From the NCBI GenBank assembly GCA_965645245.1, contig OZ287070.1, positions 2,666,001-2,730,000 on the forward strand: a stretch of DNA of 64,000 nt. Direction: 5' to 3'. Shown piece by piece: positions 1-17,388 of the stretch. The translations under genes and the position numbers were made by a program. The notes under the pieces are model-generated. The model searched no databases and was not told where the DNA came from. It worked only from the letters and a program-made list of their open reading frames with translations. Each line of letters starts with the position of its first letter. Within the stretch, counting starts at the first letter, position 1. Source of the DNA: Massalongia carnosa. Lineage: Eukaryota.

Positions 1-2180
1 AAATCGACAACCAACTGAGGGACGCTCCATCACCCCCTACGAGTCTCACACCGGCAGCCCACCAGAACTAGGACATCTAAGGATAATAGGACAGACTGGC
101 TATGCGCAAAATCGCAAGCCCTCCACTGGATGGAAGAAATTTCAGGAACGAGCCACCAAATGTACTTTAGTAGGATACGAAGGCGATCACATCTATCGAA
201 TGATAAATGCACGGGGCGCGGTCATGCGTTATTCCAATGTTCAGTGGATAGATAACAATCCCCCAACTCCTCCTTCCTTATAATTCTCTCAAACTAAAAG
301 AGCCCTACATGTTGGACAGTCAGGACCACCCACAAGAAAGCAAAAAATTACCCATCATACGGACGCCCCTCATACGGACTTAGTCGACGCTCATGAATCC
401 ATAGAATCAATTCCCACTGGACCTCTCCCATCAAACGCTGGACAAGATGCATTGGCAAACCAACTGCCCATTGAGCCTCGGTCCCAGACAGATATTCTCT
501 CTAAGCACCCAAAACTTCGTGCCCCCTCGCCTGAACCACTAGCTCTTTTGGCTCTTCTTGCTCGAGCCAATGACCCAGAGCCATACGAGCCTAAAACCTA
601 TAAGCAGGCCGTAGATAGTTGTGAGGAAAAGGATTGGCGAAGGGCAATGCAGGAAGAAATTGACTCTATCAACGAAAATGATACCTGGATCCTCACCTCC
701 CTGCCCCCGGACCGCAAAGCCCTGCGAGGCAAATGGGTTTATAAAATCAAACGAGGCCCGGCTGGCGAGATTCTTCGTTACAAGGCTCGATGGGTAGTCA
801 GAGGCTTTGAGCAACGTGAAGGCATTGACTACAATGAGACTTTTGCTTCAGTAGTGAAGCCAATGAGCTATAAAGCCATCTTCGCTATCGCTGCAGCCAA
901 TGACTTGGGAAATTCACCAAATGGACGTAAAAACAGCCTTCTTTTACTGAAGGGTGGACGAGGAAATCTACGTGGAGCAACCAACCGGTCTGGATGACGG
1001 GTCAACGAGAGTTTGCAAGTTGAAGAAAGCTTTTTATGGCCTGAAACAGTCGTCTATAATCTGGTATGAAACGATCACTACTTTTTTCAAGTCTCATGAA
1101 TTCGTTCCAGTCAACGCCGACCTTAGCGTTTTCGTTAAAGAAGGGGTTATCGTAGCCATTTACGTCGATGATTTAATCATCACTGGCTCTTCTTCTTCCG
1201 AGATACAACGTGTCAAGAAACTGCTGAGCGACGAGTTCTCGATGGTTGATTTAGGCCCTATCAATTACTACCTGGGCATGACGATAACTCGGGATCGGGC
1301 TAATAGGATTCTTCGCCTTGGTCAGCAGGCCTATCTGGAAAAAGTACTACGCGACCATGGCATGTGGGACACTAACCCCGTAGCTACCCCGATGGATGGG
1401 CGACTGGAGGCTGCACCAGAGGGCCATCAGGCCACAGATGACTCTCGCCTCCGCTACCAATCAGCGGTGGGCTCTCTCATGTATGCTATGCTAGGCACTA
1501 GGCCTGACTTAGCCTACGCCGTATCGGTGGTCAGCCGCTATGCCTCGAACCCGACCGATACGCACTGGAAGGCAGTCAAACGCATCTTTCGATACATCAA
1601 GGGCACTCTACCATTGCAGTTAACATACAAAGGTCACTTACAACCCTTGAACGGTTACACTGACGCGGATTGGGCCGGAGATCATCATACCCGAAGGTCT
1701 ACCTCTGGCTTCGTGTTTAATGTGGGTAGTGGCGCTATTAGCTGGTCTTCCAAACGACAACCGACCGTAGCCCTATCTTCATGCGAAGCCGAGTACATGG
1801 GTCAGACTCAAGCCACCAAGGAAGCCGTCTGGTTGTCTAGTCTTCTCGAGCAACTTTCAGCACCTCACGTCCCTGGGAATCACTCTCTCCAAACCCAGAG
1901 CACCTCTGTAGCCCTTGCCTGCTTGCCTACATCTTTCGCCCTAAATGCTATCATCATTCACTGCGACAATCAAGGAGCAATGGCTTTGGCCAAAAATCCC
2001 CAGGCACACGCGCGGAGCAAGCATATTGACATCCAATGGCACTACCAAAGAGAGAAGATCGAAGACAAATCAGTGGAATTTCGCTATGTTCCTACCGAAG
2101 AGCAGGTAGCTGACGGCCTAACCAAGGCCCTACCAAAGGACAAATTTGTTGTCTTTCGAAAGGCTTTAGGCTTAGAGTAA
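1..2180 (+). pseudogene. Ty1/Copia pol 3' part (integrase tail, RT, RNase H), frameshifted
   Basis: Copia RT motifs KWVYKIK, YKARWVVRGFEQ, YGLKQS, IYVDD; RNase H motifs YTDADWAG, SSCEAEY, HCDNQGA, ADGLTK. Frame break and stop near 905-950. Confidence 0.95.
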
Positions 2181-2608
2181 ACCAGAAGCCTTTTATCGTA
2201 AAAAATCCGACCTTAACCCCCCCAAAAAAGAAAGTATCACCCACAGCTGAGCCTGTGGGGGTGTTTTCGTACATCGCCAGCAGCATTAGCCTGCGGAGTA
2301 CACTGACTCACCTGCAGGTGATCCACTGGGAAGCATGATATTATACTGGAGTATGTGGGAGTTATTGAATTTCTCTTTTTCATGTAGGAGTGCTATTTCA
2401 GTGCCTGAGTGGGAGTGTTAGAATGTACAAATCAGGCTACTTGATTTCAGCCGCACTCACCTTCTACCGCACGAGTATACGCACGCTAATGGCTAGACGT
2501 ATCGCTAGTCTAATACTAGGATACCGTACATTGTCTATAAATCTAGCTATTCCCACTATATAGAACAAAAGCAAGCGTTCTATCCTCTATCTACTATACT
2601 ACCTTTTG

Positions 2609-3146
2609 ATAAAGTACCCGTACGAGCTGTTTTAGACTGATTCTTGTGTTATTTAGGGCCTTAATTCTTTACGACGCCGCAGTCGCCGTTGCCGCCGTGC
2701 AGCAGAATCCCGTCCTCATTGTAGGACAACAGCAGCTGGCCTCCTTCGTACATAGCCCGCAAGGACGAGCGATTCTAGCCTTACCAGGGCAGAACGTGGA
2801 GTTCGTACGCGACAGTATAACTCCCGCTCAAATAGGATCGCATCGTCCCTCGTATCTCAATGGCGTTCTCATTCAATCTCGTGGAACAACGCTGGAGCAA
2901 CCGTGTCTCGCTTGTCACAGCGTGTTTCCGGGCCTTCGTCCGTTTCCGAAGTGTCGCCGGGTGGCCGGACACTTCGGCGGAGCATGCGCCAATTGCAAAT
3001 GGCGCGATCATGCCAGTCGCTGCTCCGTACGAGGGGATGAGGATGATGATGTCGTTGTGATTGGCCAGCGCCGTTTGAAGCCTTCTTCAGGGAATCATGT
3101 TGTTAATGATGACGGAACGACTCCAGAAACTGCCATTGTTCTTTAA
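2609..3146 (+). CDS. DUF3716-like Cys-rich protein inside the LTR (start codon possibly mutated)
   Basis: Pattern IQSRG..PCLAC..PFPKC..FGGACANCKW..C. Candidate intron 2614-2656 (GT..CTGAT..TTTAG) would give (M)KALILYD if ATA at 2609 was once ATG. Confidence 0.65.
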
Positions 3147-3540
3147 TAAAGTGAGTATGAAGATTTTTCTTTAAAGTCACAGCACAAGCACAAGCACTAC
3201 TTAATCGTACGGGATGTGTACGATACCTGAACAAGACTTGCACTTCTACGCAGTGTTCAGGACGAGTAACTCTTGTATGAAGAGTGAAACCAAGCAAGTC
3301 AATTAATTAGAATAAACATCGAGAGTGTAATATAATAGGGGTTTTCACGGTTGATTTTCAAATTTCAGGTTTTCAGGGTTTTATTTTTCAGGTTATCAGG
3401 GTTTGGCGTTTAGGCATGAGTGCCCCGAAATTATTAGAAAATTTTAATTCTAATGCTTAGTCATTCAATCAGACGTTACCAACCTCTTTTCTAACTTCTC
3501 ATCTTCGATCGAGGGGACATTCTTGTCATTTTAAATAGTT

Positions 3541-4749
3541 ATGCCTCGTGTCAGCTGCAAAGTGCAGCTAGAAAGAGATTTACGTTGTCTTTACTTTCTA
3601 CATGATACTACTGCATCATCATAGGATGAATCGGATGAAGCATTGAATTTCCTACTTCTAGCAGAAGGAATTCAAGAACAGCGTTATTTAACTCCCCGAT
3701 TATTCGTTCCCAAATCCAATTGGGCGTCAGCTGTCCTTCCCAACCTTTCGGATGATCGATTCCGAAGTCTGCTACGCATGAATCGCTTTTCCTTTGATCA
3801 TGTTCTCGGCTTAATTCGAAATGATCCCGTCTTTTTCAATAAATCTCGTGTCCCTCAAGCCTCCGTGGAACATCAGTTAAAATACGCTCTTTTTAGAATG
3901 GGACATGACGATAGTGCCAGTGGATTCCTTCCTACAGCTACCATGTGGGGGATATCAGAAGGGCATGTTTTTAACTGCACCAAACGGGTGATAGAAGCAC
4001 TGTGTCGGCTAAAGAATGACTTCGTTTAATGGCCCAGTGAAAGAGCTAGGATAAGAGAAAATTTGACCAATAATCAGAGACAAGATGGATTTATCGGGGT
4101 CGTTGGCAAGATGGATGGTACCGACGTTGTTCTACATACAAAACCAGGTGGTAAATACGAAGGCGAGCTATTTTTCAACAGAAAAAAGAGATACGCGATG
4201 GATTTGTATGCCGTATGTGACTCGAATAAAAGGTTTATTTACTTTCTCAGTGGATGGCCAAATTCTCAGCATGATCAGCGTATATTCGCCGCAGGTGATT
4301 TGTGGCGGAATCCCGCCTTTTATTTCTCTCCCGGTCAATATCTATTGGGTGACAGTGCCTATACGAATTCCACGTATCTGGTGACTCCATACAAGGCACC
4401 GCATACTAGAGATCCGGATATTCGTCGATTCAACAAAAGACTGTCGCGAATTCGTATAGACATAGAACATGCATTTGGAATTCTGAAAAGAAGATAGAAA
4501 AGTCTGACCGGGCTGAGAATTCGAGTCTGGAACAAGAAAAGCTATACCTACGTCATTAAATGGATAACTGCATGTGTGGTGCTTCATAACATTCTTCAAG
4601 ACATTCGAGATGAATGGAATGAAGAAGAAGGATGGTGGACAGAGGAAGAAGAGGCACATGACGAAGAATCGAAACAGCTAATCAGCAGTCAAATGACTGA
4701 AGGTCTGATCACAAGAGATCAGGTTAAACGATTGGTCATCGGCTGTTAA
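3541..4749 (+). pseudogene. Harbinger-type DDE transposase with in-frame stops
   Basis: FRSLLRM, GKMDGT, GWPNSQHDQRIF, YLLGDSAY, RIDIEHAFGILKRR motifs; in-frame stops near 3622, 4027 and 4495. Confidence 0.92.
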
Positions 4750-5118
4750 GATGATTAGTGATTGATCTCATACAACCCTAGTTGTCATTTTATTTCTTCC
4801 ATTTGAAAGACTAGCATTCATTTGATTTGATGTCGTCTGATTTCCTAGTCTTAATTGGTCGCTCCTCCCTTCTTATTACCGCCCCCTCCTCTCCTGTTGG
4901 GGCTGGTTCTGAGAATTTCTATTGACTAGGTTTTCCTACAAAATTTCTAGATGAAGTTTCGAAGCTTCGTGGGTGGGAGGCTATTTATCCCCTTTCCCCG
5001 TGACCGAGTTCTAGCCCTATTAGCTTTAGGAGTCTCGGTCCTATCCGTAATTGCCCATTTTAAAGTTGAATCCTGATTCTGTCCTGTCCTTGAACTTACC
5101 TGAGGTTCATTGAACTTA

Positions 5119-5559
5119 TGTCAAGGACTGGGTTGGGAATTGAACTAATGTTCCTAGGAATTGGATTGGATGATCAAGATGTCTTTATTAATGAGGCTAT
5201 AGCTAGGAGGTGGTTTGCTATACAAAACGTCGGACGAGGAGTCAACTATCTACTGGATATGTCCTCTTTTTATACCTGAGCCAGCCCCTTCTTTCTCATG
5301 TTTTACCTTCACCCTAGATGAGAGATTTTGGTGATGGTGGCGGCGATAAGGTGGAGCGATAAGTGGACCAGTGGATGTGATCGTTCTAGCGATAAGAGGG
5401 TATAGTGGAGTGAGGAGATTGGTGGAGTGGAGTAAGAGGTTTATTCAGACTCATACCGAGGATGAATCTGAATAGGCTTTCAGGTGGCTTTTACCTCGAT
5501 CGCCGCTTGGCGGTTCGGGGTAATCAATTAGGTTTTAACTCAAACTTTATTTCATGACA
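5119..5559. repeat. Solo LTR with 5-bp TSD
   Basis: TGTCAAGG...TTCATGACA with ACTTA on both sides; homologous in reverse orientation to 48186-48633. Confidence 0.88.
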
Positions 5560-7030: not shown

Positions 7031-7135
7031 CTCAGCCCTACTTTTCGAAAATTAAACCTGAAAACCTGAAATTCCGGTCTCATGAGTCCGGAATTTCAGG
7101 TTTTCAGGTTTTAATTTTCGAAAAGTAGGGCTGAG
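7031..7135. repeat. Near-perfect 105-bp palindrome
   Basis: CTCAGCCCTACTTTTCGAAAATT..CCGG / CCGG..AATTTTCGAAAAGTAGGGCTGAG centred on CTCATGAG; one mismatch and one 1-nt indel. Confidence 0.95.
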
Positions 7136-8881
7136 AATTTATACCTAAATAGGTTTAATGTGCTTACATAAAAAACCTGAAACCCTGAAAACCTGAAAAC
7201 CCGGCCAAAAAAACTCAACCGTGAAAACCCCTAATATGAGATTCTAATAATGAAACGTACGGGTGAATAACGCAAGCTCGTGTTGTGACAGTGAATATCA
7301 TCATGCGCAGTCTTCAAGCTCAGTTCTTTTTTTCTCCTTTCTTTCTTTCATCATTGTTCTCATCACTATGTCTTCCGGTATGTGATATCATTTATCTATC
7401 TAACAGTAAGAGACTCGTACGAACTGATATATTATGTTCAGTGTCGTCTTTGCCTTCTGCAAAACCTGTACAGTTTGTCTGCCCGGCCCTTCCCCCCTTC
7501 CTTTCTTTGAGCTCAGTCCGACCGATCAAGAAAAAACCGTCCAGTGGATCAATTCCTAGCCTAGAACAACTCAACTCGCCTTATTTAGTAGAATTATCGT
7601 TATCTTCATCCTCTGCCAGTGGTGTTGTACTATTCGAATCCAAAGCAGTATCTGTTGAGTTAAATCAGAAAAGATAAGAGTTATTCAGTTTGACGTACCA
7701 GTCTGCGTCTATATTCATCAAAATCTTATCAACCTGGAACCAGAAACTTCCTTCTTTCTTTTCCATCTGCTCAAGAACAACATAACTCTATCATTCATTG
7801 ATATTAGCTTTTGCAATAAACAAGATGCAAGACAACAATATGAAGGGAAGCCTACCCAACAAGCTGCTGCTTTCTACAAAGACATATCATTGTCCACATG
7901 TTTGGTCTCCGAGTCCACTTCTGACCTTAGGCATTCGGCAAAATCCGCAAGAGGTTTATCGACAACATCTTGACACTTGAGGAGTCGTTCCTTTAGTTTA
8001 GCCTTTTCCTCTATGCAGACTTTCCCCACTAAAGCGACAGCATTGTCTAGAAGTATTAGGTCGGAAGGAAAATGACCTCGTAATGAGGTCTTAACGATAG
8101 TATTAGCTATGGAATACCAAACGAGCCTAACGATAACGTACTAATACTTGCTTGGGATCGCTCCATGTGATTTCTTTGTATCGTTCCAAAGTTAAGCGTC
8201 GGCGTATTATGGGTCTGATTATCTGCAAACATGAGCCACAAGTATTATGCTGAAAGATTACACAAACCGCCCGTAGCTCTGTGGCATATTTTGTAGATTT
8301 GGCTTCCTTTTTAATCCGTGTGATCTCCTTCCTATTTTGCAACTGAAGCTTGTATATAGATGCTAGTTGGTACCCCGTGGAACTCTAATATGTATCATTA
8401 AAAAGCATGTTCTAAATACAACATGAGACATTGACGTGTGCGATTACATACATATTAAGAGAGGGAACAAGTTCATGCCATACCTTGATAAAAGTTTCGA
8501 CAAGGTCGTGATCCAAAGGATCTTCCCGTTGAATCGATCGAAAGATAGCGGCTTGCTCTGATGTAAATACAGGACCTTGCGTAGCAAGCGGTAATCGCGT
8601 AGAGTCGGTTGCTGATCGAGGATGCGGGTTATTTGAAGACGACGATGATGGCGCATTGCCCAGAGAAGTGCCTTTAACAATTTATTTAGAATGGTAAATT
8701 ACTTATATCAACATGGAAATGATTCTTGCCAGGGCTAGGTCCCATGCGGATGTACCGGTCTCCAAAGAAGCCGAAGGGTCTCCATTTCGCATTGAAGGTG
8801 CCGTATTTGAAAGCTCTAGATTGTTCAAGCCAGCATGATTCTAAATATTCAAAGATCAATATATGATAATGGCTGAACAAA

Positions 8882-9404: not shown

Positions 9405-9610
9405 TTGGGTAATCATTACCCAAGGTGACGGTGCTGTAACGTTGGGTAATATGGGATGTTAAACCTAAAGTTGGGTAACCATTACCCACATCATTACCCA
9501 AGGCGACGGTGCTGTAACGTTGGGTAATATTGGACGTTAAAATTAAAGTTGGGTAATTATTACCCACATCATTACCCAAGGTGACCCGTGCTGTAATGTT
9601 GAGTAATATG
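9405..9610. repeat. ~78-bp tandem subterminal array (about 2.7 units) of TTGGGTAAT/ATTACCCAA motifs
   Basis: Repeated CATTACCCAAGGYGAC..GTGCTGTAAYGTTGRGTAATAT units are directly visible. Confidence 0.9.
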
Positions 9611-10098
9611 ACACGGATCTGGTAGTGTAGTGGTGATATTGGCAGGCCACCTACCAATTAGTGTGGTCTAATCGGTTAACACTAAAATATGAGAGAATCT
9701 CATTGCTTTATTTAATTGTGTTATAGACGGCCTGTTCCTCCCTTAACGCAACAGTTCTCTCATGTGGCAATCCCTCTTTCGTCGTCTGCGTCTGCGTCAG
9801 AGCCTCTTACAGTTGAGACAACCGTCTCATTGTCTTCTGCAGAAGACCAACGCTGACGTCCAATTGTCTCGAGAGTTAGCGGTAGCGTAGGTTGGCGCTT
9901 TGAGCATAGCAGACAGGATTGAAGAGTATGTTTTAGATCGTACGAAGTCCCATCACTGAGCTATACTGGCTTTATATAATAGAGAGGAAGAAATGGGAAG
10001 ATAAGAAAGCGTGGAATTATAAACGTACGTTCTTGTTCAATCGCAATGTGAGAAATCGCGGCTGAATTTTTGTTATGAGGGTTTGGTACTTAGTTACA

Positions 10099-10711
10099 GT
10101 CCGCCGTAGTAGAGCCCTGCTTCCCCGTTTTGCTTTTGACGATCCCTCAAAGGGCGTTCCAAGGAAGACGACTCCAATCGTTCTCTCTACGCTAGCCATG
10201 TCGGTACCATTGTGCCTTGACAACGCATTGGAGACCCCCTAAGGCTGTGCGAGACGAAAATAATCGGCCGTTCAGCCTGGACATAGACATCCTATTAGCA
10301 TATTTCTGGTGGAAAGGTAGGGGTGCGCCGATTCCTACGGTTTTGGTTTTCTCGCGGAGACCGATTAGGCCCTGGAACATTGTAGTCGCGTGATCATCAA
10401 TAGTCAAATGCTCCGGGATGAATTTCGGTCCAACAAACGGATAGAAGTGAGCAAAGTCCGCATTGTACCCAAAAGAAAGGATGCGAGCTGTTGGGCAGGC
10501 TTGAGGTAAGAGATCTTGCGGCCACAACAACGATCTACCTCGACCCTCCCATGTCCACGTTTTCACTCTGTCGCCGCCGAGCCCGTGGACGAAGACAAAA
10601 CTGTTTGGTCAGTACAAAGCAACCCGGACGAGAAATGACATCTGGTGCGTACTCTATATTTGCCTCTGGAGAATCAAAGAGGGGGTCGCCTAATCCGTAC
10701 GGTTCGGCCAT
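10099..10711 (-). pseudogene. SesB-like alpha/beta hydrolase (lipase fold), frameshifted and 3'-truncated
   Basis: Spliced translation MAEPYGL..DFVFVHGLGG..TWT..WPQDLLP..ARILSFGYNA..RPIIFVSHSL..GVVFLGTPFEGS; two predicted introns; frame break just after the HSL nucleophile elbow; sequence runs into LTR-like DNA at ~10098. Confidence 0.88.
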
Positions 10712-11043
10712 GCTGGCGTTGTCATCGCAATACTACAGAGGAGTCGTGCTTCAAATTTAGCACTATAACTTATGCGAGATAATCGTGATACCGCCTACAT
10801 GGAGAGGCTTCAACACGTGCATAGCCTTGGCTCTATCAGCCATCTATCCCGCATGATGGCGGCCCTCCATCGGCGAGTCCGTGCCTATATTTATACTTAG
10901 AGATGAACAGTGCTTTTGGAAAGTCTTGAGCGTCGAGTTTCCGACCGAGCCAAAGTGCGGTCCTGAGCACGGTAAAGATAATGGTTTTCAGACTTATTCA
11001 ATATAGCTCCGAGCTCTAATGTCTACAATCTTCTGACGCAGTA
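10712..11043. promoter_or_regulatory. 332-bp divergent (probably bidirectional) promoter region between the hydrolase and the NLR
   Basis: Head-to-head ATGs at 10711 (-) and 11044 (+); central CTATATTTATA element near 10885-10895. Confidence 0.5.
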
Positions 11044-13772
11044 ATGGTCGGTAACACGCTAGCAGTCTCTACAGGCGCGAAGGATTTTGGCACCATTTCT
11101 GGCAACCAAGGCGCTGTGGTCGGTGATGTCTCAGGCCATGCGAAAGTGATTGGTCTGGGTCCTGTTCACATCGATATTGATCTTCTGCTAAATCCTGCTT
11201 AGGCTCTCAGATAAACAATATTGTTCAATATCCAGGCAAGTCGGCATTCGCAATAATATAGCGTTCTGTGAGCCAAGGCTGATAGCATTCTGCGTTTGTA
11301 GAAAGATCCGATACCCCACCAAGCCCATCATCTACTGTTCCTTTCCGCCGCGACCCTGATTTCGTCGATCGCGGAAAGCTACTTGATCAGATCCACGAAA
11401 AGTGCTCCGCGCCAGCGTCAAGGGTAGCGCTTGTCGGCCTAGGCGGCGTTGGGTAAGCCAAAGGGCCTCAGGCTAGTTCTAATAGCTTACTTTCGCAAAG
11501 AAAGTCGCAGCTTGCCATCGAATACTGTTATCGAATCAGAGAGCAGTTGCCGGCGACGTGGGTTTTCTGGATACACGCTAGCAACGCAGCCCGTATCGAG
11601 CAAGGTTATAGAGAGATTGCAGAGCAAGTCAAGATTCCTGGTAGGGGGAACCCAAAGGCGGACATATTCCGGCTAGTTGACAAGTGGTTACGTGACGAGA
11701 AGAACGGAAAGTGGGCTCTGGTCCTCGACAATGCTGACGAAGCTACTGTGCTTTTCGAAACTTGTGTTACGGGCCAGAAGGCGCAGGCCAGCGGCTCTAG
11801 CGGCGGGTTCATGCAATCACTGTTAGCATATCTACCTCAGAGCCGAAACGCCTCGATTCTCATCACCTCCCGGACTAAAAGCGTGGCATTGCGGCTAGCA
11901 GAAGAAAGCGACATAATACCTGTTGAGCCGATGGACGATACACATGCGCGAGCGCTCCTTGAAAAGAAGCTGGGAGAATCGATCGATAGAGATGATACTT
12001 CTGAGCTAGCAGTAGCACTTGAATTTATGCCGCTTGCCATTGTTCAAGCGGCTGCATAAATTCGTCAAAGAGTACCAAGATATTCAGTACGGCAGTATGT
12101 AGATGAGTTCCATAAGAATGATAAAAGAAAAGCAAGTCTCTTGAATCACGAAGGGGGACATCTTCGAAGGGACTTGGAGGCTAAAAACTCAATTATTATA
12201 ACCTGGCAAATTTCATTTGATCATATTCATCAGATCAGGCCTTCGGCAGCTAATCTGCTGTCGCTTATGAGCTTTTTCGATCGACAGGGAATTCCTGAGG
12301 CTTTACTCAAGACACAAAATGAGGCAGGAAATGAACATACGGGAGAAAATGCTGGAGATGACGAACATGATGAACACGAAGACGATAGCGATGAAGATAC
12401 CGTATCCGATTCCAGCGTCGACGATTTTGAAGCCGACATACTTGTCTTAAGAAACTACTCGTTCATCAACATCAGCATGAATGAAACCACCTTTGAGCTG
12501 CACGGGCTAGTGCAGCTAGCCATCAGAAAGTGGCTAGAAGCATCCAATCAGCTCGAAAGATGGAAGAAGCAATTCATCAAGAATCTCAGTACAGTATTTC
12601 CGACGGTACATTACGAGAATTGGACAAAGTGTCAAGCGCTTTTTCCTCACGCAAAGTCGGCAGTAGCGCAGCAGCCAGCTGTCGAAAGCTCATTACAAGA
12701 TTGGGCCTTGATACTATATCACGCTGCGTGGTATGCGTGGGCGAAAGGGAGTTACGTTGAAGCAGCGAAAATGGCCTTAAAAGCAACAAGAACCAGGCAA
12801 AAAGTGCTGGGTCTAGAGGATAAAAAGACATTGGAGAGTATGGCTATGCTAGCCATGGCACACAGCGATGGAGGGCGACGAAAGGAGGCAGAAAAGCTGG
12901 AGGTGCAAGTGATGGGGACGAGAAAGAGGGTGCTAGGGACGGAGCATCCAGCCACGCTGACCAGGATGAGCAACCTTGCGTCGACGTATTGGAATCAAGG
13001 ACGATGGACGGAGGCCGAAGAGCTCGGGGTGCAAGTGATGGAGACGAGAAAGAGGGTGCTAGGGACGGAGCATCCAGCCACGCTGACCAGGATGAGCAAC
13101 CTTGCGTCGACGTATTGGAATCAAGGACGATGGACGGAGGCCGAAGCGCTCGGGGTGCAAGTGATGGAGACGAGAAAGAGGGTGCTAGGGACGGAGCATC
13201 CAAACACGCTGATCAGCATGGGCAACCTTGCGTCGACGTACAGGAATCAAGGACGATGGGCGGAGGCCGAAGAGCTGGGGGTGCAAGTGATGGAGACGAG
13301 AAAGAGGGTGCTAGGGACGGAGCATCCAGACACGCTGATCAGCATGGGCAACCTTGCGTCGACGTACAGGAATCAAGGACGATGGACGGAGGCCGAAGAG
13401 CTGGGGGTGCAAGTGATGGAGACGAGAAAGAGGGTGCTAGGGACGGAGCATCCAGACACGCTGATCAGCATGGGCAACCTTGCGTCGACGTACAAGAATC
13501 AAGGACGATGGACGGAGGCCAAAGAGCTGGGGGTGCAAGCGATGGAGACGAGAAAGAGGGTGCTAGGGACGGAGCATCCAGACACGCTGACTAGCATGAA
13601 CAACCTTGCATTCACGTGGAAGTCTCAAAGCCGCAATGATGAGGCTCTCTCACTGCTAAAGGAATGTTTTCAGCTACGAAAACACAAATTGGGTCCTCAA
13701 CATCCTGATACAGAGTCTTCGCTTAAGTATCTCAATGAGTGGCAGATGGAGAGTTTATCATTGGAATCTTAA
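11044..13772 (+). pseudogene. Fungal NLR: short N-terminal amyloid-like motif, NB-ARC, TPR; single nonsense codon
   Basis: Predicted introns 11153-11202, 11236-11301 (GC-AG) and 11453-11500 give a continuous frame: VPFRRDPDFVDR, P-loop GLGGVGKS, Walker B LVLDNAD, ILITSR, MPLAIVQAA, LHGLVQ, then TPRs. TAA at 12057-12059 stands where Tyr (AAAYI) is expected; the frame continues after it. Confidence 0.93.
12903..13610 (+). repeat. 126-bp near-identical TPR-coding tandem repeats (~5.6 units)
   Basis: Units start at 12903, 13029, 13155, 13281, 13407 and 13533 (42 aa: VQVMETRKRVLGTEHPxTLxxMxNLASTYxNQGRW). Confidence 0.97.
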
Positions 13773-13939
13773 AGCGATTCATATAAATCAGAACTAAATC
13801 CTATTCTTCTTAAAACTTAACTGTTTGGGCGTTTGGTGAACAAAGCAGCGTAAGAATACTACTTTTTATTTTGTCCAAAGCTGAAAGCTCAGAACATGAG
13901 TGACAGAACGATCGAGCTCGCTGACGCACGCGACTACCC

Positions 13940-14218
13940 CTAGGTTTTGAACTCGCCCGCGGTAGCAGAAAGGCCCAAGCGGTGTGCTCGAACTGTTCCA
14001 AATAGCAGGAAGTCGTCAAACCTTCTCCCGTGAGCATTCGTCTCCGCGCCCTTGTCCAGCAACATCTCCGCCACCTTTTCGTGGTCTAGTTCCGCTGCCC
14101 ATATTAACGCTGTCCACCCGTGCTGAGCTTGTGCCTCCAGCTCTACCAATTTAGCACCCATGATCATGCCCAGGATAACTTCGTGTCCACTGAACGCTGC
14201 AAGCCTGTTGTCATTCAT
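13940..14218 (-). pseudogene. Ankyrin-repeat gene fragment
   Basis: LAAFSGHEVI and GWTALIWAAELDHEKVAEMLLDKGAETNA are ankyrin-type repeats; flanking frames are broken. Confidence 0.75.
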
Positions 14219-14814
14219 GACCGGCTGGTCTTCATATCATGATGAAGCCGGCCATAGCGAGTGAAATCATAGTCGAAATTGATTATCTTCTACCCGGCAT
14301 AGTCCACGAGTCTTTGATACAACTGCATCTTTCAGCTCGAAAGCAGCATTTCGGAAACGAGCCGCCGAATGTTCTGATGTTGCTGTATCTCGAGCCACTT
14401 TTGACTAGTCAGACTAGACACATTGTGCATGATAGGCGGGAGTTATGCTGCTTCTCAACAATGCTTAGAGTTATGATTTTCTTGCACATGTTTTGGCAAC
14501 TTCGGTGAAAAGCATCGCTCGTGCTCCTGATTGAAACCAGTATTATGAATTCGTCCGTTGTAGCGGTTCAGAATCTACTACATTTTAAGGCTTGATAATA
14601 TGACTCTCGCTTGTGACAGGATTGGCGATGATTTATGTACTTTATCGCAAGTGATCAGAACGCCATGGGGCGGCAAGTATATATCATCAAAGAAATCGGA
14701 TTGCGTATCAGCACTCCAGTGTGGAATACGTCCAAGTTAATGGTTTATGCATATGACTGTGATCATGAAGCTTGCTGTACGGCAGACACGTTCACAAAGT
14801 AAGGTCTTGATTCA

Positions 14815-15379
14815 TACTACACCACCATATCTGCATAACGTTACCTAATGCTTACGGGTGCATCCTTATGTAACGTTGGGTAATGTTTTCTATCAATGTT
14901 TTACAACCATGAATGAGGTGATAACGTTACATAATGATGAGGAGCATAATTGGGTAACCATTACCCCATTTAACGTAAAATGATGAATTATGATGCATTA
15001 AAACTTAGTTTGGAGCTTGCGACTCAATATTACAGGCTCACTGGCGCCGCCGCCAAATCTGCATCCTGAATCAAAATCGAAGAAAAAACTTGTATTCAAT
15101 CTGTCTCTAGGATATCTAATGGTTAGGCTTTCTCGTATAGAAAATGATACCCAGATCACATTATCTTCATTTATAAAACCTGTACAGTCTATGTCTGCCC
15201 GGCCATTCCCCCCTTCCTTTCTTTGAGCTCAGTCCGACCGATCAAGAAAACCTTCCAGTGGATCAATTCCTAGCCTAGAACAACTCAACTCGCCTTATTC
15301 AGTAGAATTATCATTATCTTCATCCTCTGCCAGTGGTGTTGTACTATTCGAATCCAAAGCAGTATCTGTTTAGTTAAAT
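14815..15379. mobile_element. CACTA-like element left terminus (second related copy, truncated)
   Basis: TACTACACCACCATATC resembles CACTACACTACCAGATC; the same TAACGTTGGGTAAT and TTGGGTAACCATTACCC motifs follow; 15175-15379 matches 7461-7665. Confidence 0.6.
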
Positions 15380-15823: not shown

Positions 15824-17388
15824 TCATGGTAGATTCTCCACTGAATCCCCCTTCAAAACCCCTCCTAGAACCTCCTTGGCGAACCAAGGTTTGTACTCCT
15901 CGTCTACCCATTTCGCAAGTCTTCTTACCACTGTCACGACCTGGTAAATACCCAAGACCGAATTCGTCCGTCCCAGTTCCAAATCTTTCAAATCACTACT
16001 CTATGATCCGCCATTGCCTCTGCAATCATCAATATCCAATTATGACCCTGCACAACCAACAGTGGGAGCACAGGCAAAGACGCGGATCCTTTGGCAAGCT
16101 GCCTTAGCCGTACGAAATGTGCCGAGACCCATATTCCCAACTGCATATGTGCGTCATCTTCATCCACCGCTGCGTGCTTCGTCTCGATGCTTACGGCGAT
16201 AGGCAAGAATCTAATATATTCCGCCATTGTATGATTTATGCTCCCTTTGCCCTCGGCACGTAACCTGAATATAATCTGCTGATGCAATTCCCGGGAAGGG
16301 TCGATCACAAGCGCATAATCGATCATTTTGGTATTCGTAGCCGAACTAGAGGCGGTGGTGGGCAAAAGAGATAAATCATGGATCTTGGCAGTCGTGACGT
16401 CGCAGTACCAAACGCCCTTGACTTTCCACCAACCGCGGAGAGCTAGTCGGAGCAGCGTCGAGTGCACCTCGCTATTCCATTCAGACTCGGAAGACCTTTT
16501 GTTCTCACATTCCATCGCTGCGTCCAGAACCTCAAGCACACGTTCCCAGAAACTCTCATGACTCAACAACCATTGGCAACCGTATTCTGTTCAGGCTCCT
16601 CCGTTCCAGCGGAAAATTTGGTATCGTCCATAAAAAGATTATCTATGATTGTGTTTACTGTTGATTTTATAGCCCCCAGTACCACCGCCTTCCCATTAGA
16701 GATCATTCGTAAATCCCGATATAAGTCTTTCGCTCCAGCTAGTATGGGATAACCAGGCGTCCCAATCGCCTTCATTTCAATTTGGGTGTCAGTAAGCTGA
16801 AGGTCACCCATACGTTTTGTAGGACTACGCGAGCGCGGATTGGTATTACTGGTACTTTTAATCCTGTGGTGACATCACTTGTGGTCGATCTAGTGGGCGA
16901 ATCAGCAGCGAGTAGGTCGGCTGGAGCCGGGAGTGGCTGTAGTAGGTCGGAGGAACTAAAGGCAGCTTCTAGGCGTGGAACTGCGCCTAGGGATTGCGGC
17001 CTGGGACTTATGTCTTGATCTTGGTAAACGGATGAGGAGTCGCGGTGAATAGGGGAAGTTAAATATGACCGAGCTGGGGCAGATAAATGCGCTTTGCGCG
17101 GTGAGATAGTCTTTGGATTTGACAGCTTATCTACTGCTGGCTTCTCGCTGGCTTTCTAGGGAGGGGCTCGACGAGGTGAAAGTTTGTCACGATCCATTAT
17201 GTTCCCGCTAGTCTTGCGAGGGCGTAATGCGAGTTGCTAGGTTTCTTTGCACCGGACAATCGACAGTTTCTCGGAATGATAATCTTTAGGATGATCAGGA
17301 TGGCCCTTGAGCCAGTTGAAACACGGCTGATATCTACAATAGGTGCCTCAATATGGAGATTTGAACGTGAGGAAGGCATGATGTACAA
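15824..17388 (-). pseudogene. Fungal PD-(D/E)XK nuclease-like gene, frameshifted
   Basis: SESEWNSEVH, KMIDYAL, SINHT, PIAVSIETK, QLGIW, LPLLVVQGHNW, LGIYQ..RRLAKW; frame breaks near 15990 and 16565; 5' limit uncertain. Confidence 0.8.

What the first reader, a model, noticed from the sequence alone, without database searches (positions are those of the whole stretch)
10099..13772. Head-to-head NLR / SesB-like hydrolase pair: candidate amyloid-signalling immune module
Seen: the NB-ARC-TPR gene has no folded N-terminal effector domain, only a ~47-aa leader before ERSDTPPSP..VPFRRD. A stand-alone SesB-like hydrolase starts 332 bp away on the opposite strand. Established: fungal NLRs without an effector domain signal through N-terminal amyloid motifs to effectors encoded by adjacent genes (nwd2/het-s; sesA-sesB with the sigma motif; PP-motif clusters). 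Inference: this is a two-gene receptor/effector unit, possibly with an unclassified motif. Limit: the hydrolase C-terminus, where the matching motif would sit, is missing in this copy.
Basis: partly seen in the sequence, partly recalled or inferred. Interest (0 to 1): 0.85.

Follow-up and report, generated by a model that had tools for sequence, protein, structure and literature searches.

The report
Decayed NLR–hydrolase amyloid-signalling gene pair
A fungal immune-receptor gene and the lipase-like gene next to it belong to a receptor/effector pair joined by a short shared tail motif that I could not place in any catalogued motif family, but both copies in this stretch are broken.

Summary
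An NB-ARC/TPR NLR gene (ATG 11044, + strand) has only a 47-residue leader. It lies 332 bp head-to-head with a SesB-like alpha/beta-hydrolase gene (ATG 10711, - strand) that lacks its 3' half.

All 26 full-length hydrolase relatives that I aligned end in a ~45-residue Gly/Asn/Val-rich motif. Its profile matches the NLR leader profile (hhalign 91.7 %, E 7.6e-7, 37 columns). Two metagenome loci keep the head-to-head layout with an intact, motif-bearing hydrolase. One partner is the same NB-ARC type and one is a NACHT-ANK NLR.

The motif core is NxG[VI][VI]xG…[VI]IG. No Pfam PP, sigma or HET-s model hits it. It shares only a 13-column core with PP and lacks PP's central Gln. It is probably an uncatalogued or divergent amyloid-signalling motif tied to hydrolase effectors.

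The window copy is a relic. The hydrolase is cut at 10109/10110 and has three copy-specific indels. The NLR has TAA where 8 of 8 aligned relatives have Tyr and contigs of four public runs read TAC.

Amyloid formation itself is inferred and was not shown. Verdict: a real module of a known kind with a new motif variant, dead in this copy.

The parts
11044..11152 (+). NLR exon 1. It holds the start codon and most of the N-terminal signalling motif and ends at ...VIG (codon split after its first base).
   Evidence: Direct reading. P0001 translation. Exon 1 ends at the same ...VIG in L003 and in 13 fragment proteins of alignment A4. tblastn with P0059 residues 1-37 hits 11044-11154 at 81 % identity.
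11153..11202 (+). NLR intron 1 (GT..AG, 50 nt).
   Evidence: Read from the sequence. The same position is interrupted in L003 by GTGAGC...AG. No RNA evidence.
11203..11235 (+). NLR micro-exon 2 (SQINNIVQYP): the tail of the motif.
   Evidence: In frame only with this model. It matches SQTNNNFQYP of the Lobaria immixta protein P0059 and the micro-exon of L003.
11236..11301 (+). NLR intron 2, with a GC donor (GCAAGT) and an AG acceptor.
   Evidence: L003 has GTAAGT at the homologous place. Splicing of the GC donor is not shown.
11302..11452 (+). NLR exon 3: linker ERSDTPPSP..PFRRDPDFVDRG and the first half of the P-loop.
11453..11500 (+). NLR intron 3 (GTAAGC..AG, 48 nt) inside the P-loop codons.
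   Evidence: Removing it restores GLGGVGKSQLAIEY, as in the relatives.
11501..13772 (+). NLR exon 4: rest of NB-ARC, DUF7779 and the TPR_10 array, up to the stop at 13770-13772.
   Evidence: Pfam. Colinear with P0054, P0055 and P0058 at 84-90 % identity.
12057..12059 (+). Premature TAA (codon 284 of 854) in the conserved AAAYIRQR stretch of NB-ARC.
   Evidence: 8 of 8 aligned relatives have Tyr here. At 12059, contigs of runs X1-X4 read C, giving TAC: X1 56782.9 of 58212.9 summed depth, and all depth in X2-X4.
12884..13609 (+). Tandem array of TPR-coding units: period 126 nt, 5.8 copies, 95 % matches.
   Evidence: Tandem Repeats Finder. TPR_10 hits.
10712..11043 (.). 332-bp spacer between the divergent start codons. 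I presume it is a shared promoter region.
   Evidence: Coordinates. The spacer is 283 bp in L003 and about 0.6 kb in L001. Promoter function was not tested.
10653..10711 (-). Hydrolase exon 1 (MAEPYGLGDPLFDSPEANI..).
   Evidence: tblastn with P0005 residues 1-34. It aligns with the family N-terminus in A1.
10601..10652 (-). Hydrolase intron 1 (GTACGC..CAG, 52 nt).
   Evidence: One contig of run X3 joins 10598 to 10653 across it. That contig is either a spliced form or an intron-less copy.
10339..10600 (-). Hydrolase exon 2 (FVFVHGLGGD...REKTKT).
   Evidence: P0003. 87.5 % identical to P0005 residues 21-108.
10277..10338 (-). Hydrolase intron 2 (GTAGGA..CAG, 62 nt).
   Evidence: The position matches the break between the tblastn segments.
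10110..10276 (-). Remnant of hydrolase exon 3. It holds the nucleophile elbow ..FVSHSL, then one extra base near 10241, 8 nt missing behind 10230 and 9 nt missing behind 10190. Homology ends at 10110.
   Evidence: Three reading frames. Relatives' contigs show exactly these three differences. They also continue beyond 10109 with sequence that I read as the next hydrolase residues. X2 record 9 (9992-10153, 0 differences) bridges the break.

Best explanation
This is a decayed copy of a two-gene fungal NLR/effector unit of the amyloid-signalling type.

How working copies probably act (L003 and L001 are examples):
- A STAND receptor with no built-in effector domain carries a ~40-47-residue N-terminal motif. 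The receptor is NB-ARC-TPR here and in L003, and NACHT-ANK in L001.
- The divergently transcribed neighbour encodes a stand-alone SesB-like alpha/beta-hydrolase (lipase/esterase fold). It ends in the cognate motif on a tail that the AF2 model predicts with low confidence.
- By analogy with NWD2/HET-S, PNT1/HELLP-SBP and het-eN/sesA-sesB, ligand binding to the repeats would oligomerise the receptor.
- That would bring the N-terminal motifs together into a cross-beta nucleus. The nucleus would template the hydrolase tail and so activate or concentrate the enzyme as a defence or cell-death effector.

Shown here: gene structure, domain identities, the shared motif, the conserved adjacency, and the damage to this copy.

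Inferred: oligomerisation, amyloid templating and the effector's role.

In this window the unit is dead. The hydrolase is truncated at 10109/10110 and frameshifted. The NLR carries a TAC-to-TAA nonsense change at codon 284.
For: Domains: TPR_10 8.8e-107, DUF7779 and weak NB-ARC in the window; NB-ARC 3.5e-8 in P0059.

Hydrolase family: 49 hits. Pfam gives Abhydrolase_6, DUF676 and PGAP1. The AF2 model has pTM 0.70 with residues 290-344 at low pLDDT. Foldseek returns only alpha/beta hydrolases among the ranks shown (434 matches at E<=1e-3).

Shared motif:
- All 26 aligned full-length hydrolases carry it.
- hhalign of the hydrolase-side profile against the NLR-side profile gives 91.7 %, E 7.6e-7, 37 columns.
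- Smith-Waterman against 2000 shuffles: L003 pair z 5.1 (1/2000), L001 pair z 4.8 (1/2000), window NLR vs P0005 z 3.4 (11/2000).
- The combined motif profile hits only 7 of 23,623 six-frame ORFs of the window plus 80 loci. All 7 are at NLR 5' ends or hydrolase 3' ends.
- A library-wide profile search gave 47 hits at E<=1e-3. I sorted these by eye into 16 NLR-exon-1 type, 22 hydrolase-tail type and 9 unrelated repetitive proteins.

Adjacency:
- L003: the hydrolase starts at 530 (+) and NLR exon 1 runs 246-136 (-).
- L001: the hydrolase runs 4452-5486 (+), head-to-head with an NPHP3_N/NACHT-ANK ORF at 97-3549 (-). The motif exon is at 3558-3698 (-).

Decay.

Precedent: sesB homologues with PP or sigma tails lie next to STAND genes (PMC3321046, passages). 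CgPNT1 regulates HELLP and the putative lipase SBP (PMC7885112, passages).
Against: - No experiment or computation here shows that the motif forms amyloid or that the two proteins interact.
- Only two other loci give direct adjacency. In three annotated genomes, the motif-bearing NLR and hydrolase that I happened to retrieve lie on contigs of different length: Lindgomyces P0127/P0019, Dendryphion P0137/P0013 and Patellaria P0065/P0043. Adjacency is therefore not universal, or the true partners were not retrieved.
- The Patellaria pair is not significantly similar (z 0.3).
- A profile built from hydrolase tails alone did not separate this motif from PP-type leaders, and one of 1200 shuffles outscored every real hit.
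- The cognate-versus-non-cognate comparison was inconclusive.
- The intron model, including a GC-AG intron, has no RNA support.
Confidence: 0.8

Rival explanations
1. The shared motif is simply a member of the known PP (RHIM-like) family. On this view the locus is an ordinary PNT1/SBP-type PP cluster with nothing new about the motif.
For: - 39 of the 60 close NB-ARC-TPR relatives with an intact short leader carry PP-type NxGxQxG leaders, so this receptor backbone is PNT1-like (my regular-expression sorting).
- The hydrolase-tail profile aligns to PP leaders over a 13-column core NxG(L/V)(Q/V)xGxxxG, with E 0.002.
- One PF17046-type leader, P0060, scores z 4.1 (4/2000) against the P0005 tail over 12 residues.
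- PP is already known on sesB-type lipases (PMC3321046, PMC7885112).
Against: - Pfam PF17046 (the PP model) hits 0 of 16 NLR-side and 0 of 19 hydrolase-side instances even at E<=10, yet it does hit the control leaders P0060 and P0062.
- The central Gln that defines the pseudopalindrome is replaced by Val or Ile.
- hhalign probability to PP is only 13.6 %, against 91.7 % between the two sides of this motif.
- The motif is about 40 residues long, against 17-18 for PP, and has a second conserved block ...[VI]IGS.
- Two PP-type leaders are not similar to the tail (z 0.3 and 1.4).
Confidence: 0.3
2. The similarity between the NLR leader and the hydrolase tail is a low-complexity coincidence, and the two genes are merely neighbours in an NLR-rich, transposon-rich region.
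For: - The motifs are short and rich in Gly, Asn and Val.
- A single-sided HMM gave weak, unspecific scores, and one shuffle beat all real hits.
- Fungal NLR genes are numerous and often sit beside unrelated genes (general knowledge).
Against: - The profile-profile E-value is 7.6e-7 over 37 columns.
- Six of 7 pairs beat at least 1989 of 2000 composition-preserving shuffles.
- The same head-to-head pairing recurs with two unrelated NOD backbones, NB-ARC-TPR and NACHT-ANK.
- In 23,623 ORFs the motif occurs only at NLR 5' ends and hydrolase 3' ends.
Confidence: 0.05
3. The two proteins are partners, but the motif works without amyloid. It could act, for example, by beta-strand addition or as a docking peptide that tethers the hydrolase to the activated receptor.
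For: - Nothing here demonstrates cross-beta structure.
- The effector-side motif is 4 residues longer than the receptor-side one, which is awkward for strict in-register templating.
- The effector carries one copy and not the two repeats of HET-s-type effectors.
Against: - Every fungal NLR/effector terminal-motif pair tested so far (HET-s, HELLF, PP, sigma peptide, PUASM) behaved as amyloid or prion (PMC7885112 and PMC9815663, passages and abstract).
- Single-copy effector motifs are already described for HRAM3/PNP_UDP (PMC9815663, section 24).
- The conserved Asn and Gly positions (N21, G23, G27 and G37 on the NLR side) fit beta-arc motifs.
Confidence: 0.12
4. The stop codon and the indels are assembly errors, and the locus is functional in the organism.
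For: - The NLR is otherwise colinear with relatives that are 84-90 % identical.
- Most summed contig depth at 12059 reads C.
Against: - A substitution to TAA is not a typical long-read indel error.
- In X1, about 1430 of 58212.9 summed depth does not read C.
- X2 record 9 covers 9992-10153 with 0 differences and so bridges the truncation point. Several other records match the window exactly.
- The missing 3' half of the hydrolase is nowhere in the 64 kb.
- These runs may include the window's own source, so they are not fully independent.
Confidence: 0.07

Closest known systems
Chaetomium globosum hellp-sbp-pnt1 PP-motif cluster (CgPNT1 NB-ARC/TPR NLR, CgSBP putative lipase, CgHELLP). I read passages of PMC7885112.
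   Same: An NB-ARC/TPR receptor has only a short N-terminal motif. The neighbouring gene encodes a lipase-like protein that carries the cognate motif at its C-terminus. Most close relatives of this window's NLR backbone carry PP leaders (39 of 60).
   Different: The motif is not PP by the tests I could run: no PF17046 hit, no central Gln, and about twice the length. No HeLo-like third gene was seen in the window, L003 or L001. The copy here is a pseudogene pair.
Nectria haematococca s locus: sesA / sesB / het-eN with the sigma motif. I read passages of PMC3321046.
   Same: A stand-alone alpha/beta-hydrolase (sesB) has a C-terminal prion-like extension and lies next to a STAND gene whose N-terminus carries the same extension. 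In het-eN the homologous N-terminal region was first missed because an intron in the 5' region went unnoticed. The motif exons here are likewise split by introns.
   Different: The sigma motif (GxGxQFNxx / GGTQNINT, three repeats) is not present. There is no sesA-type gene here. I did not compare the hydrolase directly with SesB itself.
NWD2/HET-S and the HRAM families (PMC4518210, passages).
   Same: The same receptor-to-effector logic applies. On the NLR side, the Asn-to-Gly spacing of 16 residues equals HRAM positions 3 to 19.
   Different: Only 2 of the 5 HRAM core positions are hydrophobic. The effector is an enzyme and not HeLo. The effector motif is single and has 20-residue spacing. 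Neither motif alignment returned any Pfam amyloid-motif model, PF11558 included.
PUASM (PNP_UDP-associated motif, FxGxGxQxxGxGxF) from PMC9815663.
   Same: It is an amyloid-signalling motif tied to one enzymatic effector class and was found by NLR adjacency.
   Different: The sequence pattern and the effector domain both differ. PUASM has experimental support and this motif has none.

Membership tests
Fungal STAND/NLR, NB-ARC-TPR class | P-loop GxxGxGK[ST] and an NB-ARC domain | tested here: met
   GLGGVGKS is restored by removing the 48-nt intron. NB-ARC is weak in the window's large exon (E 0.017), which lacks the P-loop exon. The 71 % identical P0059 scores 3.5e-8, above the cut-off.
Fungal STAND/NLR, NB-ARC-TPR class | C-terminal superstructure-forming repeats | tested here: met
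   TPR_10 at 8.8e-107 with 8 stretches. The 126-nt tandem array has 5.8 copies at 95 % matches.
Fungal STAND/NLR, NB-ARC-TPR class | Uninterrupted reading frame (a functional gene) | tested here: not met
   TAA lies at 12057-12059, where 8 of 8 relatives have Tyr and run contigs read TAC.
NLR/effector amyloid-signalling gene pair (Daskalov 2012 type) | The NLR has no N-terminal effector domain, only a short extension | tested here: met
   The leader is 47 residues and has no Pfam family.
NLR/effector amyloid-signalling gene pair (Daskalov 2012 type) | The adjacent gene encodes an effector-domain protein | tested here: met
   The hydrolase start is 332 bp away on the other strand.
NLR/effector amyloid-signalling gene pair (Daskalov 2012 type) | The effector C-terminus is homologous to the NLR N-terminus | tested here: met
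   Met in relatives and in loci L003 and L001: hhalign 91.7 %, E 7.6e-7; z 4.8-5.1 for the within-locus pairs. It cannot be seen in the window's own hydrolase, because that part is deleted.
NLR/effector amyloid-signalling gene pair (Daskalov 2012 type) | Adjacency recurs in other genomes | tested here: met
   L003 and L001 are both head-to-head. This is only 2 loci. Three species pairs that I retrieved lie on contigs of different length.
NLR/effector amyloid-signalling gene pair (Daskalov 2012 type) | Motifs co-vary within a cluster more than between clusters | tested here: inconclusive
   The L001 NLR scores best with its own hydrolase (52 against 26-39). The L003 NLR exon 1 scores best with the L002 hydrolase (55 against 38 for its own). 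The sample is too small.
NLR/effector amyloid-signalling gene pair (Daskalov 2012 type) | The motif forms amyloid or prion and transmits the fold | not testable with these tools
   This needs peptides or in vivo fusions.
PP motif (Pfam PF17046, 'misnamed SesB' according to PMC12261475) | Match to the family model | tested here: not met
   0 of 16 NLR-side and 0 of 19 hydrolase-side instances hit at E<=10. The control leaders P0060 and P0062 hit at 7.2e-6 and 2.8e-6.
PP motif (Pfam PF17046, 'misnamed SesB' according to PMC12261475) | Pseudopalindrome NxGxQxGxN centred on Gln | tested here: not met
   The central position holds Val or Ile (consensus NxGVVxG). A remote relation is not excluded: 13 columns align at E 0.002 with probability 13.6 %.
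Sigma motif | GxGxQFNxx / GGTQNINT units repeated three times | tested here: not met
   No such units appear in alignments A3 or A4. Neither motif alignment returned any Pfam amyloid-motif model. The pattern comes from passages of PMC3321046.
HRAM / HET-s motif | A 21-residue unit with G19, N/Q/H at 3, hydrophobic residues at 5, 8, 10, 16 and 18, R/K at 15, and two repeats on the effector | tested here: not met
   The NLR side keeps N3 and G19 but has only 2 of the 5 hydrophobic positions. The effector has a single copy with 20-residue spacing (my reading against passages of PMC4518210). Neither motif alignment returned any Pfam amyloid-motif model.
SesB-like alpha/beta-hydrolase effector | Alpha/beta-hydrolase fold with a Ser nucleophile elbow | tested here: met
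   AF2 model pTM 0.70. Foldseek returns thioesterases, esterases and lipases, with the best hit 3flb at E 3.9e-6. H117, S118, G120 and G121 are nearly invariant, and H256 is invariant, in A1. In the window the elbow is followed at once by a frameshift.
SesB-like alpha/beta-hydrolase effector | The same Pfam families as the sesB-type effectors of the literature (PF05057 / PF07819 / PF12697) | tested here: met
   PF12697 scores 25.8-28.4 bits against a cut-off of 26.3. PF05057 and PF07819 are below their cut-offs. Supplement 6 of PMC9815663 labels hydrolase partners with these three families. The support is weak but consistent.
SesB-like alpha/beta-hydrolase effector | Direct homology to Nectria haematococca SesB | not tested

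The most novel reading that the evidence does not exclude
The motif defines a further fungal amyloid-signalling family that is specific to SesB-like hydrolase effectors.

- The receptor side has the consensus MADNxPxVSTGAKxFGAISxNRGVVxGDxSGxAxVIG.
- The effector side is the same motif with a 4-residue insertion.
- It is used with both NB-ARC-TPR and NACHT-ANK receptors across several classes of Pezizomycotina.
- It may be the missing effector partner of one of the 'orphan' NLR-side motif classes of Wojciechowski et al. 2022: NLR40 or NLR34, which sit at positions 5-34 of NACHT-ANK/WD NLRs and had 0 neighbours found.
- The length mismatch between the two sides would then be an unusual case of heterotypic templating.
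Probability: 0.35. Interest if true: 0.6.

Novelty: new variant of a known kind. Interest (0 to 1): 0.42.

Why it matters
Fungal NLRs that signal through terminal amyloid motifs are the best-understood case of prion-like signal transduction in immunity. Only four or five motif families were catalogued as of 2022-2025 (PMC9815663, PMC12261475).

A further motif would widen that catalogue. This one is tied to an enzymatic effector and not to a pore-forming one. It is shared by two receptor backbones, and its receptor and effector versions differ in length. It would also give a simple test case for how much mismatch templating tolerates.

The window adds a small evolutionary point. Such modules decay in place: receptor and effector are both hit in a transposon-dense region, while intact relatives persist in related samples. 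That fits the birth-and-death dynamics described for fungal NLR repertoires.

Tried and rejected
- First exon model: I ended the first intron one base early and set exon 2 one base too long. Both were corrected.
- HMM from hydrolase tails only, run against 60 NLR leaders: 44 of 60 real leaders and 16 of 1200 shuffles passed E<=10. Scores were at most 9.8 bits, PP-type leaders hit as well, and one shuffle reached 12.3 bits. I did not use it as support.
- The search for homologous proteins with P0137 residues 1-47: it found only itself.
- Supplements of PMC9815663: no motif words and none of six accessions were found. However, file 2 is cut, files 9-10 are unreadable, and the HMM and FASTA files cannot be read here. 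Whether the motif equals their NLR40 or NLR34 class therefore stays open.
- Cognate versus non-cognate scores: inconclusive.
- Complex prediction (two hydrolase tails plus one NLR leader): no verdict.
- The look-up of sequencing runs: no RNA holder listed.
- Read laying: contigs only, so it says nothing about expression or about splicing of the NLR introns.
- The search of earlier findings: nothing on this genome.
- Considered and dropped: HET-s-type assignment (spacing fits on one side only) and sigma assignment (no units).

Full report
**What is in the sequence**

The window is fungal and dense with transposons. Pfam finds copia and gypsy reverse transcriptases, integrases, DDE transposases and a LINE endonuclease.

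The + strand from 11044 carries an NLR gene. I read four exons: 11044-11152, 11203-11235, 11302-11452 and 11501-13772.
- This model is in frame and restores the P-loop GLGGVGKS.
- The large exon scores TPR_10 at 8.8e-107 and DUF7779 at 2.7e-7. NB-ARC is weak at 0.017 because the P-loop exon was not in that query.
- The 71 % identical Lobaria immixta protein P0059 passes NB-ARC at 3.5e-8.
- The TPR part is a 126-nt tandem array of 5.8 copies at 95 % matches.

The intron model rests on three things. The consensus ends are GT..AG, GC..AG and GT..AG. The same interruptions occur in metagenome locus L003, which has GTAAGT where the window has GCAAGT. Thirteen fragment proteins run on unalike just after ...VIG (12 right after it, one two residues later). 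There is no RNA evidence.

On the - strand a hydrolase gene starts at 10711, 332 bp from the NLR start. Its exons 1 and 2 (10711-10653 and 10600-10339) are 60-88 % identical to the 344-aa relative P0005. Exon 3 (from 10276) changes frame twice and loses similarity at about residue 188. No trace of residues 189-344 exists anywhere in the 64 kb.

**Both genes are damaged**

*NLR.* At 12057-12059 the NLR has TAA inside the conserved AAAYIRQR stretch. All 8 aligned relatives have Tyr there. Otherwise the gene is colinear with relatives of 84-90 % identity.

I laid contigs of four public runs from three studies on 9800-13800. One of them is labelled a lichen metagenome.
- At 12059 the contigs read C, giving TAC. 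This is 56782.9 of 58212.9 summed depth in X1 and all depth in X2-X4.
- The relatives carry 9 extra bases behind 10190 (X3, X4) and 8 extra bases behind 10230 (X4 and part of X2). They lack one base at 10241 (X2, X3, X4). These are exactly the three indels I had inferred from the reading frames.
- Contigs of X2, X3 and X4 leave the window to the left of 10109. I read the reverse complement of their continuation as the next hydrolase residues.
- X2 record 9 (9992-10153, no differences) bridges the window's own junction.

The hydrolase copy is therefore truncated at 10109/10110, and these defects are specific to this copy. These runs may include the window's own source, so they are not fully independent of it. 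Contigs also say nothing about expression.

A search with hydrolase exon 2 (P0003) among longer proteins gave 49 hits at E<=0.001. I aligned 26 of them, all stand-alone proteins of 344-435 aa. I dropped 23:
- 3 NACHT-WD NLRs of about 1630 aa;
- 12 fragments of 152-259 aa;
- 8 models of 285-382 aa.

Of those 8 models:
- P0026 ends within the motif.
- P0008 and P0014 stop just before the motif, close to where the last exon begins in L003.
- P0039 runs on into unrelated sequence.
- P0046 carries a divergent variant.
- P0023, P0044 and P0048 show no motif.

All 26 aligned proteins end in a ~45-residue segment with the consensus ..MGDVxFxxxIENNxGVVMGHAYxTAxDGVxITGS...

Among 121 NLR relatives, 60 have an intact short leader. 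By my regular-expression sorting, 39 are PP-type (NxGxQxG), 16 are other or none, and 5 carry the same kind of leader as the window: P0059, P0127, P0137, P0065 and P0174.

Three kinds of test link the two sides.
- Profile against profile: the hydrolase tail (26 sequences) aligns to the NLR leader (6 sequences) over 37 columns, with probability 91.7 % and E 7.6e-7.
- Pairwise local scores against 2000 composition-preserving shuffles:

| Pair | z | Shuffles at or above the real score |
|---|---|---|
| L003, NLR vs its own hydrolase | 5.1 | 1/2000 |
| L001, NLR vs its own hydrolase | 4.8 | 1/2000 |
| Lindgomyces, P0127 vs P0019 | 5.0 | 1/2000 |
| P0059 vs P0005 | 4.7 | 1/2000 |
| Dendryphion, P0137 vs P0013 | 3.6 | 5/2000 |
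| Window NLR vs P0005 | 3.4 | 11/2000 |
| Patellaria, P0065 vs P0043 | 0.3 | not significant |

- Specificity: a combined motif profile hit 7 of 23,623 six-frame ORFs of the window plus 80 loci at E<=0.01. All 7 lie at NLR 5' ends or hydrolase 3' ends, and three of them had been used to build the profile.

In the window the motif occurs once, on the NLR.

**Adjacency elsewhere**

A metagenome scan with the hydrolase alignment returned 80 loci.

*L003 (2984 nt).* An 80 % identical, intact hydrolase starts at 530 and ends in the motif. NLR exon 1 runs from 246 to 136 on the other strand, followed by the same micro-exon, and then the contig ends.

*L001 (9855 nt).*
- A 45 % identical hydrolase runs 4452-5486 (+) and carries a motif tail.
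- It lies head-to-head with a 1151-codon ORF that scores NPHP3_N at 2.9e-24, NACHT at 4.8e-4 and Ank_2 at 3.7e-43.
- Just upstream of that ORF is an exon with the motif (3558-3698, - strand). A GTGAGC..AG intron joins it in frame to the ORF, as I read from the printed sequence.

So the motif serves two unrelated NOD backbones, as other amyloid-signalling motifs do.

*Other loci.*
- L002 and L005 hold motif-bearing hydrolases on short contigs. I ran no NLR test on L005, and three L002 ORFs gave no Pfam family.
- L004 holds a divergent-tail hydrolase whose neighbouring ORFs gave no Pfam hit.
- L006, L014 and L069 show the hydrolase domain just upstream of NB-ARC on the same strand. This is the known 'all-in-one' architecture.

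*Against a universal rule.* The motif-NLR and motif-hydrolase that I retrieved from Lindgomyces, Dendryphion and Patellaria sit on contigs of different length. The searches listed only the nearest NLR backbones, so the true partners may simply not have been retrieved.

**How widespread is the motif**

I ran a profile of seven locus-derived instances against 1.84 billion representative proteins. It gave 47 hits at E<=0.001. By eye:
- 16 are NLR-exon-1-type fragments. One, P0187, is nearly identical to the window's exon 1 plus intron read-through.
- 22 are hydrolase tails. Where an upstream domain is visible (P0191, P0194, P0213, P0214) it is the hydrolase.
- 9 are long repetitive proteins that I regard as unrelated.

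No other effector domain turned up with this tail, though most hits are exon-sized fragments.

**What kind of motif is it**

Pfam's PP model PF17046 is called 'misnamed SesB' in PMC12261475. It hits the control leaders P0060 and P0062. It hits none of the 16 NLR-side or 19 hydrolase-side instances, even at E<=10. Neither motif alignment returned any other Pfam amyloid-motif model either.

The hydrolase-tail profile shares a 13-column core with PP leaders, NxG(L/V)(Q/V)xGxxxG (E 0.002, probability 13.6 %). One PF17046-type leader scores z 4.1 over 12 residues. However, the central Gln that defines PP is Val or Ile here. The motif is also about twice as long, with a second conserved block ending in [VI]IGS.

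Against the HRAM definition (PMC4518210, passages):
- The NLR side keeps Asn at position 3 and Gly at position 19.
- Only 2 of the 5 core positions are hydrophobic.
- The effector side is a single copy with 20-residue spacing.

The sigma units are absent.

The text and supplement 6 of PMC9815663 list hydrolase partners only under PP-cluster and sigma-cluster motif identifiers. Its orphan NLR-side classes NLR40 and NLR34 occur at positions 5-34 of NACHT-ANK/WD NLRs and had no neighbour found. I could not read the logos, HMMs or FASTA files, so identity with one of these classes remains open.

**The effector**

The AF2 model of P0005 has pTM 0.70 and mean pLDDT 67.9. It shows an alpha/beta core and a low-confidence tail at residues 290-344. 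Foldseek returns thioesterases, esterases and lipases (best hit 3flb, E 3.9e-6; 434 matches at E<=1e-3). His117-Ser118 in the HSLGG elbow is nearly invariant and His256 is invariant. Pfam families PF12697, PF05057 and PF07819 match weakly, as for the sesB-type partners in the literature. I did not compare the protein with SesB itself.

**Mechanism and verdict**

The closest precedent is the C. globosum cluster, where the NB-ARC/TPR NLR PNT1 controls HELLP and the putative lipase SBP through PP motifs (PMC7885112, passages). Another is sesB/het-eN (PMC3321046, passages).

By analogy, the receptor's leader would nucleate a cross-beta fold on oligomerisation and template the hydrolase tail. That step is inferred. 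The attempt to model the complex gave no verdict.

The locus is a real example of a known kind of system. Its motif is an uncatalogued or divergent variant as far as I could test, and this particular copy is a relic.

Noticed in passing
window 7461-7665 and 15175-15379: Two direct copies of a 207-bp sequence (95 % identical) bracket the whole NLR/hydrolase island, 7.5 kb apart. They could be copies of a small repeat or the remains of a larger element that carried or disrupted the module.
   Followed up: no
window 7031-7135: A 106-bp stretch matches its own reverse complement at 96 %, so it is a perfect-type palindrome.
   Followed up: no
window 9412-9610: A tandem repeat of 78-nt units (2.5 copies, 89 % matches) lies just beyond the hydrolase truncation point. 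It may belong to whatever replaced the 3' half of the gene.
   Followed up: no
window 13940-14236 (-): An ankyrin-repeat fragment (Ank 1.8e-7) runs convergent with the NLR stop. It may be the remnant of another ANK-type NLR.
   Followed up: no
window 15988-16590 (-): An ORF with a strong PDDEXK_12 nuclease-family match (4.7e-51) sits in the same island.
   Followed up: no
window 11236-11301: The second NLR intron has a GC donor (GCAAGT) where L003 has GTAAGT. Either it is a tolerated GC-AG intron or it is a further defect of this copy.
   Followed up: partly
window 10598-10653, run X3: One contig of a run labelled lichen metagenome (kind guessed as DNA) joins across hydrolase intron 1. It is either a spliced transcript in the library or an intron-less paralogue.
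   Followed up: no
L006 10001-12432, L014 (same coordinates), L069 2466-4162: A related hydrolase domain lies directly upstream of NB-ARC on the same strand. This is the fused 'all-in-one' version of the same receptor/effector combination.
   Followed up: no
P0210 (537 aa): A representative protein begins with the NLR-side motif and ends in what look like ankyrin repeats. It hints at further receptor backbones that use this motif.
   Followed up: no
P0054 and P0058: Two NLR paralogues, 90 % and 84 % identical to the window's gene, lie on contigs of the same length (3,767,895). The family seems to be multi-copy in a close relative. Their gene models start after the P-loop, so their leaders were not seen.
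   Followed up: no
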